Source: a virus (Duplodnaviria > Caudoviricetes). From it: DNA of 64,000 nucleotides. The notes beneath the pieces were generated by a model, which worked only from the letters and a program-made list of their open reading frames with translations, was not told the DNA's origin and did not search any database. Position 1 is the stretch's first letter; each line of letters starts with the position of its first letter. The stretch lies in IMG/VR virus record IMGVR_UViG_3300043812_000016, positions 32,001 through 96,000 of that record; one strand, given 5' to 3'. Made by a program: the position numbers and the translations under genes. Shown here piece after piece: positions 7,338 through 31,680 of this stretch.

Positions 7338-7395
7338 AGAATTGTTGGTTAAATACATTAATTAAATGTTAGTCAAATGGCCAATCCTTTCTTAT

Positions 7396-7468
7396 CGTGG
7401 AGTGGAGCAGTTGGTAGCTCGCCAGACCCATTATCTGGAGGCCACAGGTTCAAGTCCTGTCTCCGCAA
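7396..7468 (+). tRNA. tRNA-Met(CAT), initiator-like, with atypical anticodon arm
   Basis: Cloverleaf with C1:A72 mismatch; stem CCAGA/TCTGG; loop CC-CAT-TA; T-loop TTCAAGT. Confidence 0.85.
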
Positions 7469-7604
7469 TTGGACTTAGTTACCTTTGGGTGATGATAGCT
7501 AGGTCCTGCCTTCTTATAGTTAGACATTTGTTGAATGGTAGCTTCTTTTGGTTTGTAATTTTTGTTCGGACGTGTAAGTTTAACTGTGTGCAATTAGCAC
7601 ACTT

Positions 7605-7638
7605 GTCTCGATAGTCTAACTGGATAAAACATCGGATT
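7605..7638 (+). pseudogene. 5' half of a split tRNA (Arg-like)
   Basis: GTCTCGA acceptor strand, D arm AACTGGATAA, anticodon stem TCGGA; pairs with 8447-8483. Confidence 0.75.
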
Positions 7639-7649
7639 ATCTATTATAA

Positions 7650-7723
7650 GTGAGTATCGCCTAATTGGATAAGGCACTTGTCTTCTAAACAAGATATTAT
7701 GGGTTCAAATCCCATTACTCACA
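7650..7723 (+). tRNA. tRNA-Arg(TCT)
   Basis: Complete cloverleaf: GTGAGTA/TACTCAC, CTTGT-CTTCTAA-ACAAG, T-loop TTCAAAT. Confidence 0.92.
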
Positions 7724-7741
7724 TCTTCTTAATTATGGAGA

Positions 7742-8449
7742 GTGGTAGTAATTAAATATTTGATAAAAGATGTTAGTGACGATCAATTTATTAAAGCTGT
7801 TAAATCTAGTAAAACCTATACAGAGATTGCTAAAAAGCTTGGTGCTTACTATGCAAGTGCTCCCTCTGTTGTAAAACGTAGAATTGAACAGTTGGGGATT
7901 GATTTTAAACCTGTGTCTCCTAGATATGAACCAGATGACGTATTTTTCTCAGAGCATCATTATCATACTTCCCATACATTAAGAAGTAGATTACTAAAAA
8001 TAAAAGATCGTGAGTATATTTGTTCTGTTTGTGGGCATCTTCCTATATGGAATGGTCAAGCTCTTACATTGGAAGTTGACCATATTAATGGTGACTCATC
8101 AGATTGTAGGTTAGCTAATTTACGCTGGGTTTGTCCCAATTGTCACTCACAAACAAATACTTACAGAAGGGGTAATAGTGGTTCCCCTAGAGAATACTAT
8201 TATCATAGGGTATGTATTGTTTGTGATAAGGAATTTAAGTCTACATCCAGACATGCTAAATATTGCTCTAAGGAGTGTTATAAAAAGGCTTTTACCAAAA
8301 AACCTCCCATAGGTAAGAATGAACTTATCAAAAGATTACGACAGACTTCTTTTGTTCAGGTAGGGAGAGATTTTAACGTTACTGATAATACAGTAAGAAA
8401 ATGGTGTAGAAAGTATAACATTTCTACTAGGTCAAAAGATTATAAATAA
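7742..8449 (+). CDS. HNH homing endonuclease
   Basis: CSVCG...LEVDHINGD..DCRLANLRWVCPNCH, second Zn finger, C-terminal HTH. Confidence 0.9.
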   Translation: MVVIKYLIKDVSDDQFIKAVKSSKTYTEIAKKLGAYYASAPSVVKRRIEQLGIDFKPVSPRYEPDDVFFSEHHYHTSHTLRSRLLKIKDREYICSVCGHLPIWNGQALTLEVDHINGDSSDCRLANLRWVCPNCHSQTNTYRRGNSGSPREYYYHRVCIVCDKEFKSTSRHAKYCSKECYKKAFTKKPPIGKNELIKRLRQTSFVQVGRDFNVTDNTVRKWCRKYNISTRSKDYK

Positions 8450-8483
8450 TCCGAAAATCCGAGTCCGAGTCTCGGTCGGGACA
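8447..8483 (+). pseudogene. 3' half of the split tRNA
   Basis: TAA-TCCGA anticodon stem, T arm CCGAG-TCCGAGT-CTCGG, TCGGGAC-A acceptor strand. Confidence 0.75.
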
Positions 8484-8487
8484 TTGT

Positions 8488-8710
8488 AGCAATTATGTGG
8501 AATAGATAGAATTTCATAAAAACACCTCCTTCCAATAAAATTGGATTTCAAAATAATTTAGTTGTAATACATAAGACAATAGGTTCACCCTATAAAGTTC
8601 CTTTCGTTAATACGGAAGACTAAAGTTAGTAGTCTTCTAAAGATGATTAAGTCTTAAAATTTCTTTATTCGTATCCTCTATCTAAGTAGGTTCGATTCCT
8701 GCAATTGCTA
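8488..8710 (+). ncRNA. tRNA-like-domain RNA with a ~165-nt internal region bearing anti-SD tracts
   Basis: Acceptor AGCAATT/AATTGCT, helix TAGATAGA/TCTATCTA, T arm GTAGG-TTCGATT-CCTGC. Confidence 0.7.
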
Positions 8711-8712
8711 TC

Positions 8713-8800
8713 GGCTAAGAAGTCTTTCTCATTTTATTCTTCTTAGCCTTGTATAATGGTGTTTAGTCATTATTATACTTCTTTTTCTTATTTTCTGTTA
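8713..8800 (+). ncRNA. Two hairpins antisense to the start regions of genes 4081 and 5247
   Basis: 8726-8739 is the exact complement of 4083-4096; 8761-8787 pairs with 5229-5256. Confidence 0.65.
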
Positions 8801-8840
8801 AACATCCTGTGGTATCTCCAGCGCAGGATGTTTTTCTTTT
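8799..8840 (+). terminator. Intrinsic terminator of the tRNA operon
   Basis: AAACATCCTG/CAGGATGTTT stem followed by a T run. Confidence 0.8.
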
Positions 8841-8957
8841 ATTTCTTTATATTAATATTGATACAAGATTGTACAATCTTATTTCTTGTATTGAATTCAA
8901 TATGAGGAGGTTGGAATGTTAGACTAGGATAGCCTAGCCGTAACCTAGTTTCTCCTA

Positions 8958-10250
8958 GTGCTAACTCTAGCAATGGGAAAACATTATTTTAAGAAGTTAG
9001 CTGTTGCAACAGTAGCCTTAGCAACTCTTGGAGCAACGATGTCTCTTTCCTCTGGAACTGTAATGGCGGCCAAGGGGGATCATGGTGTCGATTGGTCGAA
9101 ATATCAAGGATCTAATGGTATCTTTGGTTATCCAGACGATAAGTTCGCTGTTATTCAAATGGGTGGTACTACTACTGGTTGGAATCTTTATGACCAGTGG
9201 ACTTATGGATCACAGGTAAGAAGTGCTATTGCTCAAGGCAAGCGGGCGCATAATTATATCTGGTGGCAAAATGTTACGACTACTCAACAGGCGGATCAAG
9301 TATTAAATTACTTTTTGCCTAAGGTACAAACACCGAGAGGCTCAATTATCGCTCTGGACGTTGAGTCAGGCTATCAGAGTACTCAAGCTATTGACCATGC
9401 TTGTCAACGAATTAAAGACGCAGGTTATACGCCAATGGTTTATGGTTATAAGAATTACCTTGTAAATAATACTGATCTTCATTATTTAGCAAGTAAGTAT
9501 CAACTCTGGTTGGCGGAATACCCTAATTATTCAGTAACTAGAGAACCTAATTATAATTTCTTCCCTAGCTTTGAAAATATTGGTATGTTCCAATATACGT
9601 CAACAGCGATTGCTGGTGGTCTTGATCGGAACATTGACCTCACTGGTATTACTGATAATGGTTATACTAATGGTAATGCTCAAAAGCCTAAGACAGAAAC
9701 TCCAGCAACGGAACAAGGTAAGCAACTTCATCAAGATACCCATAATTATGTGGTTAAGTCCGGTGATAGCTGGTGGAAGATTGCTAATGATCACGGAATG
9801 GATATGTACGCCTTAGCTAAGCTTAATGGAAGTACTATTAATTCTGTAATCTACCCCGGACAAGTTCTTCGGGTAGCTGATAAAGGCGAAGGTAATTCTG
9901 TTTCTAACAAGGTGCAAAAACCAGTACCAAGTACTAATACTCAACAAACTTCAACCTATACTGTTCGTTACGGGGACAGTTGGTGGAAGATTGCTAATGA
10001 TCATGGTATGAGTATGTATACTCTTGCACAAATTAATGGTAAGAGTATTTACAATACTATTTACCCCGGTCAAGTATTAAAGATTAGTGGAAACGCTCAA
10101 GTACAACAACGTAAGTCATATACTGTTCGTTATGGCGATAACCTTTCAACAATTGCTTATCGCCTAGGTACTTCTGTAAATCATTTAGTAGCTACTAATG
10201 GTTTAAGAAATGCTAATCTAATTTATCCCGGACAGGTCTTGAGTTACTAA
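8958..10250 (+). CDS. Endolysin: signal peptide, GH25 muramidase and 3 LysM domains
   Basis: GVDWSKYQG, IALDVE, WLAEYP, FQYTS; three LysM repeats; start uncertain. Confidence 0.92.
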   Translation: MLTLAMGKHYFKKLAVATVALATLGATMSLSSGTVMAAKGDHGVDWSKYQGSNGIFGYPDDKFAVIQMGGTTTGWNLYDQWTYGSQVRSAIAQGKRAHNYIWWQNVTTTQQADQVLNYFLPKVQTPRGSIIALDVESGYQSTQAIDHACQRIKDAGYTPMVYGYKNYLVNNTDLHYLASKYQLWLAEYPNYSVTREPNYNFFPSFENIGMFQYTSTAIAGGLDRNIDLTGITDNGYTNGNAQKPKTETPATEQGKQLHQDTHNYVVKSGDSWWKIANDHGMDMYALAKLNGSTINSVIYPGQVLRVADKGEGNSVSNKVQKPVPSTNTQQTSTYTVRYGDSWWKIANDHGMSMYTLAQINGKSIYNTIYPGQVLKISGNAQVQQRKSYTVRYGDNLSTIAYRLGTSVNHLVATNGLRNANLIYPGQVLSY

Positions 10251-28547: not shown

Positions 28548-29624
28548 TTGCGATGGACCACGAAAACATTTATTAAAGAATTAAATAAGCGTTATCCTAA
28601 TAAATTTATCGTGTTAGGTAAATATAATAGTATTCATACAAAAATAAGAGTTAGATGTTGTAAATGTCAGTACGAGTATGATGCTGAACCTAATTCAATA
28701 TTAAATCGTGGAATTAATTGTCCTAATTGTTCAAATATAGCTATCCACAAAAAGCAACGCTGGACTACGAGTTACTTTAAGAAAAAAGTAAAAGAGTTAG
28801 CAGGAGATTCTTATGTTGTGATAGGGTCTTATGTAGATAGTCAAACAAAAATTGATATGAAGCATTTAACCTGTGGTCATGTCTTTAGCATAAAACCTAA
28901 TGCTTTTATTCAAGGTCATAGATGTTTATATTGTTTTATGAATAAAAAGAAAACAACTAAACAATTCAAGCAAGAAATAAATGATCTTGTTGGAGATGAC
29001 TTTAACTTAATAGGTGAATATGATGGATGTATGAATTACGTTAAATTGAAGCATAATAAATGTGGTAATATTTTTAGTATAACCCCTAATAATTTTTTAG
29101 GAGGTTCTCGTTGTCCGTATTGTACTAAACTTGGTTGTTCTAATGGAGAGCAATTAATTAAATATTATTTAGACGATAGAGGTATTAATTATAAATACGG
29201 TTACTTAATTCCAGACTTAGCAAATACGCGAAATCTTCATTTTGATTTTTGGTTGGCTGATTTAAATATTGCTATAGAGTATGACGGTATCCAACATTTT
29301 AAACCTATTGAATATTTTGGGGGAGTAGATGCATTCCATAGTCAACAAATACGAGATAGATTAAAAGATAACTATTGTAAAAATAATAATATTAAATTAA
29401 TTCGTATTCCATATACTATGGATACTAAGAATAAAGTTAGAGATATTTTGTCTAAGAATATTCAAGATAAGATGAATCCAGAGGCTAATGTAGAGCAACA
29501 ACACCAAAATGATTACAAGCCGGGACACGAACAATCATTAGATAAGAAACCAGAGGCTAAAGAAGATTCTAATAAGCAAGATCTTAAGAGTCCAGAGGAG
29601 ACTAATGTAGGTAATACAGATTAG
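28548..29624 (+). CDS. Free-standing putative homing endonuclease with a portal-like acidic tail
   Basis: Zn repeats; LHFDFW...IEYDGIQH; extra ~54-aa C-terminal tail. Confidence 0.85.
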   Translation: MRWTTKTFIKELNKRYPNKFIVLGKYNSIHTKIRVRCCKCQYEYDAEPNSILNRGINCPNCSNIAIHKKQRWTTSYFKKKVKELAGDSYVVIGSYVDSQTKIDMKHLTCGHVFSIKPNAFIQGHRCLYCFMNKKKTTKQFKQEINDLVGDDFNLIGEYDGCMNYVKLKHNKCGNIFSITPNNFLGGSRCPYCTKLGCSNGEQLIKYYLDDRGINYKYGYLIPDLANTRNLHFDFWLADLNIAIEYDGIQHFKPIEYFGGVDAFHSQQIRDRLKDNYCKNNNIKLIRIPYTMDTKNKVRDILSKNIQDKMNPEANVEQQHQNDYKPGHEQSLDKKPEAKEDSNKQDLKSPEETNVGNTD

Positions 29625-30615: not shown

Positions 30616-31680
30616 TTGCCTGATAAATTAAAGAATGCTATGGACGCTATTGATAAAGCTCGTAAGTCATTAGTGTCTACAGAAGACACAGTAGAAAAGT
30701 CTGCTGAAGTTGAAAAGACTGATCCAGATGTAAAAGCACAGGAAGAAGCAACTAAGTCTACTGAGGAAGCTGAAAAGAACGTTAACCAAGCTACTATTTC
30801 AGATGATAATGAAAAAGTAACTAAGGACGTTGACGATGATGATGTAGAAGAATCTGCTGATAAAAAGGATAAGTCAACTAAGTCTGTTGATGAAGCTGAA
30901 AAATCAGAAGACGAACCTGCTGTAGAAAAGAATACAGACGCTAAGACTGAAGAAGCTAAGGCTAAGCAACATAAAGAATTAACTAATGTTGATGATCCCA
31001 AGGGTCATGAAGAAGCTTCTAAGTCATTTGATACTAATGCAGTAATTGACGCTTTAACTAAGTCTGTTGATACTATGGCTGAAATGCAAAAGTCTTACAA
31101 GGAATTAGCAGAAGCTTCTATGGAAATTGCTAAGTCATTCTTGGCTAAGCAAGCACCTATTGAAGATCAAGCTGAAAAGTCAGTAGAAAAGTCTCAAGAT
31201 AAAAAGTGTGGAGACGATGATGATGTAGAAGAATCTGCTGATAAAAAGTGTAAGACAGCTAAGTCTGATGATGACCAAGAACCAGATACAGATGATGAAG
31301 CTAAAGACGACAAGGAAGACAAAGCTAAGAAGTCTGTAGAAGATCCTGCTGATAATGCTGATGAAGCTGAAAAATCAGTGGAGGAACCAGCAGAAGAAGA
31401 TAAGGCTGAAAAGTCAATCCCTACTGGTAAGGCAGTTGCTACGGGTGCAGAAGAAGCTAAGGACGATACAGTTGCTAAGTCTGTAGAAACTCAAGAAGAC
31501 GGTGTTACTAAGGAAGCCTTAGAAAACGTAATCGCCAAGTCATTGCTTGGTTTTGATGGTGTACAAAGCGGTGTTAACTTGGAACGCAAGCACGCCTTAA
31601 AGAGTCTCTTAGCTGATACTCGAGAACTTAAAGGTACTACAGTTCCCGATAGTTTTATTGAAAGATATAACGAAATTTAG
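30616..31680 (+). CDS. Acidic scaffold-like protein
   Basis: Between protease and capsid genes; D/E/K-rich with many KS motifs and an internal 36-nt duplication. Confidence 0.7.
   Translation: MPDKLKNAMDAIDKARKSLVSTEDTVEKSAEVEKTDPDVKAQEEATKSTEEAEKNVNQATISDDNEKVTKDVDDDDVEESADKKDKSTKSVDEAEKSEDEPAVEKNTDAKTEEAKAKQHKELTNVDDPKGHEEASKSFDTNAVIDALTKSVDTMAEMQKSYKELAEASMEIAKSFLAKQAPIEDQAEKSVEKSQDKKCGDDDDVEESADKKCKTAKSDDDQEPDTDDEAKDDKEDKAKKSVEDPADNADEAEKSVEEPAEEDKAEKSIPTGKAVATGAEEAKDDTVAKSVETQEDGVTKEALENVIAKSLLGFDGVQSGVNLERKHALKSLLADTRELKGTTVPDSFIERYNEI

What the first reader, a model, noticed from the sequence alone, without database searches (positions are those of the whole stretch)
8488..8710. tRNA/tmRNA-like scaffold carrying three anti-Shine-Dalgarno tracts
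Seen: 7-bp acceptor stem, unpaired D region, an 8-bp helix in place of the anticodon arm and a canonical T arm. This is the layout of a tmRNA tRNA-like domain, but without G3-U70, encoded CCA or an obvious tag frame. The inner region holds TTTCAT-N5-CACCTCCTTCC (8512-8533), TTCCTTTC (8598-8605), ATCCTC (8673-8678) and internal helices. Inference: tRNA-like ends let RNase P/RNase Z release and stabilise a multivalent antisense RNA from the tRNA operon.
Basis: partly seen in the sequence, partly recalled or inferred. Interest (0 to 1): 0.82.

Follow-up and report, generated by a model that had tools for sequence, protein, structure and literature searches.

The report
Oversized tRNA-like RNA in phage tRNA operon
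A Lactobacillus-type phage carries, four bases after its arginine tRNA gene, a 223-base gene for an RNA whose ends fold like a tRNA but whose middle is a long non-decoding insert, much like the still unexplained 'species 1' RNA of phage T4; only one of its three supposed ribosome-site-binding tracts is conserved.

Summary
The structural observation holds. Window 8488-8710 folds into a 7-bp acceptor stem, an 8-nt unpaired segment with an invariant GG, an 8-bp helix, a canonical T arm and discriminator A. This layout occurs once in the 143-kb phage genome, against 0.03 per shuffled genome. It begins 4 nt after a tRNA-Arg on the coding strand.

Nine distinct copies (223, 195 and 181 nt) exist in one small clade of about 133-153-kb Herelleviridae-like phages. 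All 20 pairs of the tRNA-like domain are kept in every copy. Changes fall in unpaired positions (7 of 17, against 2 of 40 paired, both pair-preserving).

It is not a tRNA, an intron-bearing tRNA, a tmRNA (no G3:U70, no conserved tag frame, no Rfam or ARAGORN hit), a minus-strand ORF or an attP copy.

Only CACCTCCTTCC is conserved. TTCCTTTC and ATCCTC lie in a fast-changing part, and no specific antisense target emerged. No expression data could be obtained.

The closest known thing is phage T4 rnaC/rnaD, which has the same genomic context and is absent from Rfam. This scan has already reported similar tRNA look-alikes in other phages' tRNA islands.

Verdict: probably a real, processed, non-decoding tRNA-like RNA. 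The anti-Shine-Dalgarno role is an untested lead.

The parts
7395..7469 (+). tRNA-Met(CAU), first gene of the tRNA operon
   Evidence: ARAGORN and Rfam RF00005
7605..7638 (+). 5' half of the resident tRNA-Arg(UCU), cut in the anticodon loop
   Evidence: Aligns with the intact tRNA-Arg of relatives L006 and L009
7639..8446 (+). Inserted cassette: a complete, divergent tRNA-Arg(UCU) (7650-7723) plus an HNH endonuclease ORF (7742-8449)
   Evidence: ARAGORN and Rfam; Pfam HNH_3 plus HTH; absent in all relatives
8447..8483 (+). 3' half of the resident tRNA-Arg; a 4-nt spacer TTGT (8484-8487) follows
   Evidence: Alignment A1
8488..8494 (+). Acceptor stem, 5' strand AGCAATT
   Evidence: Fold; invariant in 9 variants although flanked by variable sequence
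8495..8502 (+). Unpaired D-loop analogue ATGTGGAA; GG at 8499-8500 is invariant, 5 of 8 positions vary
   Evidence: Alignment A2
8503..8510 (+). 8-bp helix, 5' strand TAGATAGA
   Evidence: its only change is A-U to G.U
8523..8533 (+). Single-stranded CACCTCCTTCC, identical to the 16S anti-Shine-Dalgarno core; the only conserved pyrimidine tract
   Evidence: Invariant in A2; unpaired in the MFE fold; the only AAGGAGGTG complement on the + strand of the genome
8531..8545 (+). Hairpin 1, TCCAAT-AAA-ATTGGA
   Evidence: invariant apart from a 1-nt loop insertion in three variants
8562..8574 (+). Hairpin 2, TTGT-AATAC-ATAA
   Evidence: RNAalifold: one compensatory U-A to C-G change and one G.U to A-U change
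8575..8676 (+). Fast-changing part of the insert (indels of about 28-42 nt, low identity between length classes); holds TTCCTTTC and ATCCTC
8677..8684 (+). 8-bp helix, 3' strand TCTATCTA
8686..8702 (+). T arm GTAGG-TTCGATT-CCTGC
   Evidence: U.G to C-G in L016; loop position 59/60 is U or C
8703..8710 (+). Acceptor stem 3' strand AATTGCT plus discriminator A; followed by T, no CCA
8713..8748 (+). Perfect 10-bp hairpin directly 3' of the element
   Evidence: Sequence; conserved in relatives
8800..8843 (+). Intrinsic-terminator-like hairpin plus T run; first terminator after the tRNA operon
   Evidence: Sequence

Best explanation
This is a gene for a non-decoding, oversized tRNA-like RNA that forms the last cistron of the phage's small tRNA operon (tRNA-Met, tRNA-Arg, this RNA).

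Shown:
- Its two ends form a tRNA 'top half': a 7-bp acceptor stem stacked on a 5-bp T stem with a canonical T loop.
- A short GG-containing loop replaces the D arm.
- An 8-bp helix replaces the anticodon arm and carries a 140-166-nt insert.
- These pairings are kept in all nine natural variants, while the unpaired positions and the distal insert change freely.

Inferred:
- The RNA is co-transcribed with the tRNAs.
- RNase P cuts its 5' end (U at -1, A at +1) and RNase Z cuts its 3' end after A8710. It has no CCA and a U follows the discriminator, as for the three neighbouring tRNAs.
- The host enzyme then adds CCA, giving a stable RNA of about 226 nt (184-198 nt in relatives).

The proximal part of the insert (8516-8574) is a conserved module: a single-stranded CACCUCCUU tract followed by two small hairpins.

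Most likely role, at low confidence: the tRNA-like fold gives tRNA-like processing, stability and abundance, and the exposed tract pairs with Shine-Dalgarno sequences of mRNAs and so damps their translation. I give about 0.55 to 'real processed tRNA-like RNA gene' and about 0.2 to the Shine-Dalgarno-binding role.
For: - Fold and chance: the fold matches the described layout. The full motif occurs once in the genome, against 0.03 per shuffled genome.
- Position: the element starts 4 nt after tRNA-Arg on the strand that carries all large ORFs.
- Distribution: one copy is present in each of the 3 other near-complete relatives of about 133-153 kb and in several fragments. Of the three long records, the model R1 was run on G001 and G002 only.
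- Conservation of pairing: there are 9 distinct sequences, with all 26 tested pairs intact in every sequence. RNAalifold recovers the same helices on its own, plus a hairpin with one compensatory change.
- Substitution pattern: variable columns are 2 of 40 paired, both pair-preserving, against 7 of 17 unpaired (Fisher p=0.002). The 5' strands show 1 of 15 variable against 10 of 17 in adjacent unpaired sequence (p=0.003).
- Allele history: the short allele is shared by L007 and L009, whose flanks differ in similarity to the window. This points to old alleles exchanged by recombination, so the conserved stems are informative.
- Stability: the tRNA-like domain is in the MFE fold in 7 of 9 variants.
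- Ends: all four tRNA(-like) 3' ends here read A73 followed by U, without CCA.
- Precedent: phage T4 has stable RNAs rnaD and rnaC directly after its tRNA-Arg(UCU), next to a homing endonuclease gene. rnaC has a canonical T arm and paired ends. Their roles are unknown (PMC3014915).
Against:
- All relatives are close (flanks 90-100% identical). There is no double compensatory change in the tRNA-like domain itself, and the T arm and 3' acceptor strand may lie outside the diverged segment.
- z is only -2.2 for the window copy. In a fold of L009 that began one base late (180 of 181 nt), z was -0.4.
- The distal insert changes by indels, as a decaying sequence would.
- The same genome holds other tRNA genes with damaged anticodon arms, which fits decay.
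- Anti-SD role: complementarity is generic. The best of 219 start regions pairs 14 of 15 nt and is not clearly above chance. The phage's own genes also use GGAGG-type sites.
Confidence: 0.55

Rival explanations
1. It is a relic: a former tRNA gene rearranged by homing-endonuclease-driven breaks and insertions. It may still be transcribed, and perhaps cut, because it sits in the operon, but it has no function of its own. The CACCTCCTT tract is then an accident, for example an inverted fragment of a ribosome-binding site.
For: - The neighbouring tRNA-Arg of this very phage is split in its anticodon loop by an HNH cassette.
- The genome's tRNA-His-like gene (G000 31525-31603, minus strand) has an altered anticodon arm compared with the normal tRNA-His of relative L003.
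- The distal insert evolves by deletions bounded by short repeats.
- The locus is a recombination hot spot.
Against: - The geometry cannot arise from a simple insertion into an anticodon loop. Only 8 nt stand in place of the D arm and positions 8-26, and 1 nt in place of the variable loop.
- Stems are spared while adjacent unpaired positions vary (p about 0.002-0.003).
- The element is kept in every genome of the clade.
- A 58-nt island inside the insert is conserved between two variable stretches and shows one compensatory change.
Confidence: 0.25
2. The functional unit lies on the minus strand: a small ORF (8517 down to 8440, MKFYLFHIIATMSRPRLGLGFSDYL) with a perfect ribosome-binding site GGAAGGAGGTG-N5-ATG. 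It could be a small toxin-like peptide, or there could be an antisense transcript from the minus-strand promoter-like site at 8801-8772.
For: - The SD and ATG are present in the window.
- A minus-strand TTAACA-18-TATAAT site matches 11 of 12 positions.
- There is a weak, non-significant psm-mec RNA match at E 0.76.
Against: - The ATG is lost in all four 181-nt variants while the SD complement stays invariant.
- The ORF runs antisense through tRNA-Arg, so its C-terminus changes with the tRNA allele.
- The hydrophobic stretch is too short for a membrane helix.
- All large ORFs in the window are on the + strand.
- Promoter-like sites are no more frequent than in shuffles.
Confidence: 0.05
3. It is a reduced phage tmRNA-like RNA that enters stalled ribosomes and adds a tag from an internal frame.
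For: - The layout of the tRNA-like domain matches that of tmRNA.
- A frame without a start codon stays open for 28-33 codons in the 223- and 195-nt copies and in L009 (my reading).
- ARAGORN's tmRNA mode calls exactly 8488-8710 at a 70% threshold.
Against: - There is no G3:U70 (C3-G70).
- The relaxed ARAGORN mode gives 213 calls in the genome and about 290 in shuffles, and it fails on four relatives.
- There is no RF00023 match at E<=10 in the region or the genome.
- The phage has no SmpB.
- A +1 insertion in three variants, and the indels, put homologous bases in different frames, and the tag ends differ.
Confidence: 0.04
4. It is a decoding tRNA interrupted by an intron that is spliced out.
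For: ARAGORN with introns allowed, at an 80% threshold, draws a tRNA-Lys(CUU) with a 140-nt intron.
Against: - That drawing has mismatched D and anticodon stems and appears only below the default threshold; nothing is called at default.
- There is no group I intron match, and 140-166 nt is short for one.
- The would-be anticodon loop differs between 95%-identical phages.
Confidence: 0.03
5. The 3' part is a phage attachment site that copies the 3' end of a host tRNA or tmRNA gene.
For: Phage attachment sites often copy the 3' ends of tRNA genes (general knowledge).
Against: - The 21-nt T-loop and acceptor string has no tRNA match in one genome for each of 185,579 species; the single hit is inside a GC-rich coding region.
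- The 5' strand pairs with it and co-occurs in all copies.
- The genome is of the large virulent Herelleviridae type.
Confidence: 0.01

Closest known systems
Phage T4 species 1 and species 2 RNAs (rnaC, rnaD)
   Same: - They are small stable RNAs encoded at the end of a phage tRNA cluster, directly after tRNA-Arg(UCU), with a homing endonuclease gene (segB) beside that tRNA.
- rnaC has a canonical T arm and base-paired 5' and 3' ends around a long non-tRNA middle.
- They are not in Rfam and their function is unknown (PMC3014915).
   Different: - There is no sequence similarity, and the host lineage differs (Gram-positive, Herelleviridae-like phage).
- Here the acceptor is a perfect 7 bp and the D arm is reduced to 8 nt.
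- An 8-bp helix joins the T arm through a single base.
- The insert carries a conserved 16S-like CACCUCCUU tract.
- That the T4 RNAs are cut by RNase P is from my memory of the 1970s literature and was not checked here.
tRNA-like domain of tmRNA (SsrA, Rfam RF00023)
   Same: The layout is the same: acceptor stem, unpaired D-loop analogue with GG, a long helix in place of the anticodon arm, a T arm, and a large insert between the two halves.
   Different: - It has no G3:U70 alanine identity pair.
- It has no conserved tag frame, resume codon or pseudoknots.
- It gives no match to the family model or to ARAGORN at default settings.
- The phage encodes no SmpB.
Spacer-derived RNA sponges of tRNA operons (3'ETS of leuZ in E. 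coli); C-rich anti-SD sRNAs of Firmicutes (RsaE, RNAIII)
   Same: These are regulatory RNAs released from a tRNA transcript by tRNA-processing enzymes, or RNAs that block translation by pairing a pyrimidine tract with Shine-Dalgarno sites (from my own knowledge).
   Different: Here the tract sits inside a tRNA-shaped molecule rather than in a spacer. No partner is known and nothing has been tested.
Bacterial Y-RNA-like YrlA RNAs
   Same: They are non-decoding RNAs with a tRNA-like module, and some are phage-encoded (from my own knowledge).
   Different: In YrlA the tRNA-like module is internal and the ends form the Ro-binding stem. Here the ends form the acceptor stem, and there is no Rfam match.

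Membership tests
Canonical tRNA (RF00005) | Cloverleaf with D arm, 5-bp anticodon stem, 7-nt anticodon loop and variable loop; detected by tRNA finders | tested here: not met
   ARAGORN at default settings and Rfam find only the two true tRNAs. There is no tRNA match at E<=10 in 8300-8950. Only 8 nt lie between the acceptor and the helix, and 1 nt between the helix and the T stem.
Canonical tRNA (RF00005) | 7-bp acceptor stem stacked on a 5-bp T stem with a TTCRANN loop | tested here: met
tmRNA (RF00023) | tRNA-like domain layout | tested here: met
tmRNA (RF00023) | G3:U70 alanine identity pair | tested here: not met
   Position 3 is C and pairs with G in all 9 variants
tmRNA (RF00023) | Conserved tag reading frame with resume codon and stop | tested here: not met
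   A +1 insertion in three variants and the indels shift homologous bases between frames, and the tag ends differ. ARAGORN finds no tag in the relatives.
tmRNA (RF00023) | Match to the family model or to ARAGORN at default settings | tested here: not met
   The relaxed-threshold call is at noise level.
Group I intron in a tRNA gene | Intron in the anticodon loop with a group I core; exons join into a cloverleaf | tested here: not met
   There is no RF00028 match at E<=10. The only exon model appears at an 80% threshold and has mismatched stems.
T4 rnaC-type stable RNA of phage tRNA clusters (a kind, not a sequence family) | Encoded in a phage tRNA cluster on the tRNA strand, tRNA-like T arm and paired ends, non-tRNA middle | tested here: met
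   for the element; for T4
T4 rnaC-type stable RNA of phage tRNA clusters (a kind, not a sequence family) | Accumulates as a stable processed RNA in infected cells | not testable with these tools
The host is not in culture as far as I can tell.
Type I toxin-antitoxin small ORF (minus strand) | Conserved small hydrophobic ORF with start codon | tested here: not met
   The ATG is absent in the four 181-nt variants

The most novel reading that the evidence does not exclude
The phage makes a tRNA-shaped, tRNA-stable RNA that displays an exact copy of the 16S rRNA anti-Shine-Dalgarno core (CACCUCCUU). The RNA either competes with ribosomes for strong Shine-Dalgarno sites, shutting off or timing the translation of host or phage messages, or acts as a decoy for factors that recognise the 16S 3' tail. 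If so, it would give a first function for the 50-year-old class of stable RNAs in phage tRNA clusters.
Probability: 0.15. Interest if true: 0.75.

Novelty: new variant of a known kind. Interest (0 to 1): 0.4.

Why it matters
Stable tRNA-like RNAs at the ends of phage tRNA clusters have been known since the T4 work of the 1970s, yet still have no assigned role and are missing from Rfam. This Gram-positive example has a cleaner tRNA-like domain. It also has natural length variants that mark which parts are constrained, and one conserved exposed tract that suggests a concrete, testable activity: pairing with Shine-Dalgarno sites. It further shows that gene finders miss such RNAs in phage annotation. 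If the RNA proves to be an inert relic, the locus still documents how homing endonucleases remodel phage tRNA genes.

Tried and rejected
- **Rfam.** Nothing at gathering thresholds or at E<=10. The best match was psm-mec RNA on the minus strand at E 0.76, which is noise.
- **ARAGORN.** Nothing at default settings. Relaxed thresholds gave a tmRNA call and an intron-tRNA call, but the control showed 213 tmRNA calls in the genome and about 290 in shuffles, so both were rejected.
- **GenBank phages.** No DNA match for 8300-9000. The closest named phage, LfeInf, and two L. plantarum phages lack the element when searched with model R1.
- **Collection scans.** Scans with the T-loop and acceptor string found only this clade plus chance hits in GC-rich coding DNA. 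No ancestral normal tRNA and no host tRNA were found.
- **Amber recoding.** Rejected genome-wide: TAG ends 24 of 124 long + strand ORFs.
- **Antisense targets.** The longest exact complement in the genome is 14 nt, at chance level. A duplex scan of 219 start regions gave a best hit at the ribosome-binding site of an XRE-like regulator (genome about 29332, minus strand; 14 of 15 pairs) and ranked the lysin leader about 12th. Neither is convincing. A first, larger scan timed out.
- **Other tRNA-like domains around CACCTCCTT.** A scan of IMG/VR (first 120 rows only) gave only false positives in which the tract is the anticodon stem of an ordinary tRNA-Met.
- **Phage-encoded helpers.** No SmpB or CCA-adding enzyme gene is present.
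- **Host.** Not identified beyond lysin similarity to Limosilactobacillus fermentum phages, so host targets and the host tmRNA could not be examined.

Full report
**Where it lies.** The window is bases 32001-96000 of a 143,482-bp IMG/VR phage record judged complete. The genome has 34% G+C, and all large ORFs in the window are on the + strand. The tail sheath is 60% identical to that of Lactobacillus phage LfeInf (Herelleviridae) and 43-48% identical to those of L. plantarum myoviruses. The lysin is closest to those of Limosilactobacillus fermentum phages. ARAGORN and Rfam find two tRNAs, tRNA-Met at 7395-7469 and tRNA-Arg(UCU) at 7650-7723. Neither finds anything at 8488-8710, even at E<=10.

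**The observation.**
- a 7-bp acceptor stem, 8488-8494 with 8703-8709;
- 8 unpaired bases;
- a perfect 8-bp helix, 8503-8510 with 8677-8684;
- one base, then a T arm GUAGG-UUCGAUU-CCUGC;
- discriminator A8710, with no CCA and C3-G70 instead of G3:U70.

An acceptor stem plus a T arm alone turns up about once per shuffled genome. Adding a helix of at least 7 bp in this geometry leaves the real element as the only hit in the genome, against 0.03 per shuffled genome. The element also starts 4 nt after the discriminator of a tRNA-Arg.

The three pyrimidine tracts are at the stated coordinates. CACCTCCTT is the only complement of AAGGAGGTG on the + strand of the genome.

**Relatives.** Exact-pattern scans and a flanking-protein search found the element only in one clade. 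This comprises five IMG/VR contigs from two samples and five metagenome records, including records of 133, 141 and 153 kb. There are nine distinct sequences in three length classes of 223, 195 and 181 nt (alignment A2). Model R1, built from them, finds one copy in each of the three near-complete genomes it could search. It finds none in LfeInf or in two L. plantarum phages. In all relatives the element directly follows an intact tRNA-Arg(UCU).

**What is conserved.** The flanks are 90-100% identical, so plain conservation means little. The locus itself is far more diverged than its surroundings:
- the tRNA-Arg has several alleles;
- the D-loop analogue varies at 5 of 8 positions;
- the distal insert (8575-8676) drops to about 30% identity and has indels of 28-42 nt.

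The short allele is shared by L007, whose flanks are about 96-100% identical to the window, and by L009, whose flanks are about 80-96% identical. The alleles therefore look older than the flanks and appear to have been moved by recombination.

Against this background, all 20 pairs of the tRNA-like domain and the 6 pairs of hairpin 1 are intact in every sequence. The only changes in paired bases are A-U to G.U and U.G to C-G. Variable columns number 2 of 40 paired against 7 of 17 unpaired (Fisher p=0.002). The 5' strands, which lie inside the diverged segment, vary at 1 of 15 positions against 10 of 17 in the adjacent unpaired sequence (p=0.003).

RNAalifold, given no structure, returns the same helices. 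It adds a 4-bp hairpin at 8562-8574 with one compensatory U-A to C-G change. The tRNA-like domain is in the unconstrained MFE fold of 7 of 9 variants and within 1.5 kcal/mol of it in the other two. GG in the D-loop analogue is invariant, as expected if it docks on the T loop.

Weak points remain:
- There is no double compensatory change in the tRNA-like domain.
- There are few independent lineages.
- The T arm and the 3' acceptor strand may lie outside the diverged segment.
- The fold z-scores are modest: -2.2 for the window copy and -0.4 for L009. The L009 fold began one base late, at 180 of 181 nt.

**The tracts.** Only CACCTCCTTCC is invariant. It lies in a conserved island (about 8516-8574) between two variable stretches and is unpaired in the fold. 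TTCCTTTC is TTCTTTTC in L006 and absent in the 181-nt class. ATCCTC is GTTTTC in the 181- and 195-nt classes. 'Three tracts' is therefore a feature of one allele only.

**What it is not.**
- *Minus-strand ORF.* The tract is the complement of a perfect ribosome-binding site followed by ATG. However, the ATG is lost in the four 181-nt variants, and the 25-codon frame runs antisense through tRNA-Arg.
- *tmRNA.* G3:U70 is missing. No frame is conserved once the +1 insertion and the indels are taken into account. RF00023 gives nothing at E<=10 in the region or the genome, and the phage has no SmpB. The relaxed ARAGORN call is at noise level.
- *Intron-bearing tRNA.* There is no group I match. A cloverleaf appears only at an 80% threshold and has mismatched stems. 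The would-be anticodon loop differs between near-identical phages.
- *attP copy.* No tRNA with this 3' end exists in one genome for each of 185,579 species.
- *Simple insertion into a tRNA.* The spacing rules this out: 8 nt in place of positions 8-26, and 1 nt in place of the variable loop.

**How it most likely works.** The following steps are inferred, not shown. The operon transcript runs from upstream of tRNA-Met to the terminator-like hairpin at 8800-8843. RNase P cuts between U8487 and A8488. RNase Z cuts after A8710. All four tRNA(-like) 3' ends here are A followed by U without CCA, which as I recall is the substrate type of Bacillus RNase Z. The host enzyme adds CCA, since the phage has no gene for one. 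The product is a stable, non-decoding RNA. Its conserved module presents CACCUCCUU, the same sequence as the 16S anti-Shine-Dalgarno core.

The simplest activity is pairing with Shine-Dalgarno sites. I found no specific target: the longest exact complement is 14 nt. The best of 219 start regions belongs to an XRE-like regulator and pairs 14 of 15 nt. The lysin leader ranks about 12th. I therefore rate the gene as real at about 0.55 and this role at about 0.2.

The main rival, at 0.25, is a relic of endonuclease-driven remodelling. In this phage the resident tRNA-Arg is split in its anticodon loop by a cassette carrying a replacement tRNA-Arg and an HNH gene. A tRNA-His-like gene also has an altered anticodon arm compared with a relative.

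**Closest known.** In T4 the order is tRNA-Ile, segB (a homing endonuclease), tRNA-Arg(UCU), rnaD, rnaC. rnaC has a canonical T arm and paired ends around a non-tRNA middle. Neither RNA is in Rfam, and their roles are unknown (PMC3014915; the T4 tRNA-region map in PMC2330249 shows RNA species I and II). The context and architecture match, but there is no sequence similarity.

This scan has already reported tRNA look-alikes in the tRNA islands of other phages, with the same closest relative. The kind is therefore not new. The tmRNA-like geometry and the conserved 16S-like tract make this a new variant.

**Limits.** The host was not identified. All relatives are close.

Noticed in passing
window 7605-8483: The resident tRNA-Arg(UCU) is split in its anticodon loop (5' half 7605-7638, 3' half 8447-8483). 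The insert is a cassette holding a complete but divergent tRNA-Arg(UCU) (7650-7723) and an HNH endonuclease ORF (7742-8449, Pfam HNH_3 plus HTH) whose TAA stop is the end of the old anticodon loop. All relatives have the intact tRNA and no cassette. It looks like a homing endonuclease that carries a replacement for the gene it disrupts.
   Followed up: partly
window 8904-8975: The lysin has an odd leader. A strong SD (GAGGAGG) and ATG at 8916 are in frame with the lysin ORF, but two TAG codons (8925, 8946) intervene. The likely start, ATG 8973, has no SD. Five CTAG motifs lie about 10-12 nt apart, and an 11-bp helix (8918-8928 with 8954-8965) could bring the SD close to ATG 8973. Genome-wide TAG recoding is excluded.
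   Followed up: partly
window 8713-8843: Directly 3' of the element lie a perfect 10-bp hairpin (8713-8748), an extended -10 box TGTATAAT (8750-8757) and a strong terminator (8800-8843). Together they could give an sRNA of about 80 nt or a stable 3' trailer fragment. On the minus strand there is a TTAACA-18-TATAAT site at 8801-8772 (11 of 12 matches).
   Followed up: no
G000:C1:31525-31603 and 31315-31400 (minus strand, just outside the window): Two more tRNA-like genes are missed by ARAGORN. The first has the tRNA-His hallmark (8-bp acceptor, G-1:C73) but a 5-nt insertion and an altered anticodon arm. The homologous gene in relative L003 (2881-2954, minus strand) is a normal tRNA-His(GUG). 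Anticodon arms seem to be hot spots of change in this clade.
   Followed up: partly
L005:4741-4815 compared with L008 and L006 (tRNA-Arg alleles): The tRNA-Arg next to the element exists in several alleles with compensatory T-stem differences (CCGAG/CTCGG against GGGAG/CTCCC). One copy (L005) looks like a recombinant with a mismatched T stem, which points to recombination breakpoints inside the gene.
   Followed up: no
G000:C1 about 29290-29340 (minus strand): The ribosome-binding site of an XRE-type HTH regulator gene (UUGAAGGGAGGUGUU) pairs with 8521-8535 of the element at 14 of 15 positions. It is the best of 219 start regions but is not clearly above chance.
   Followed up: partly
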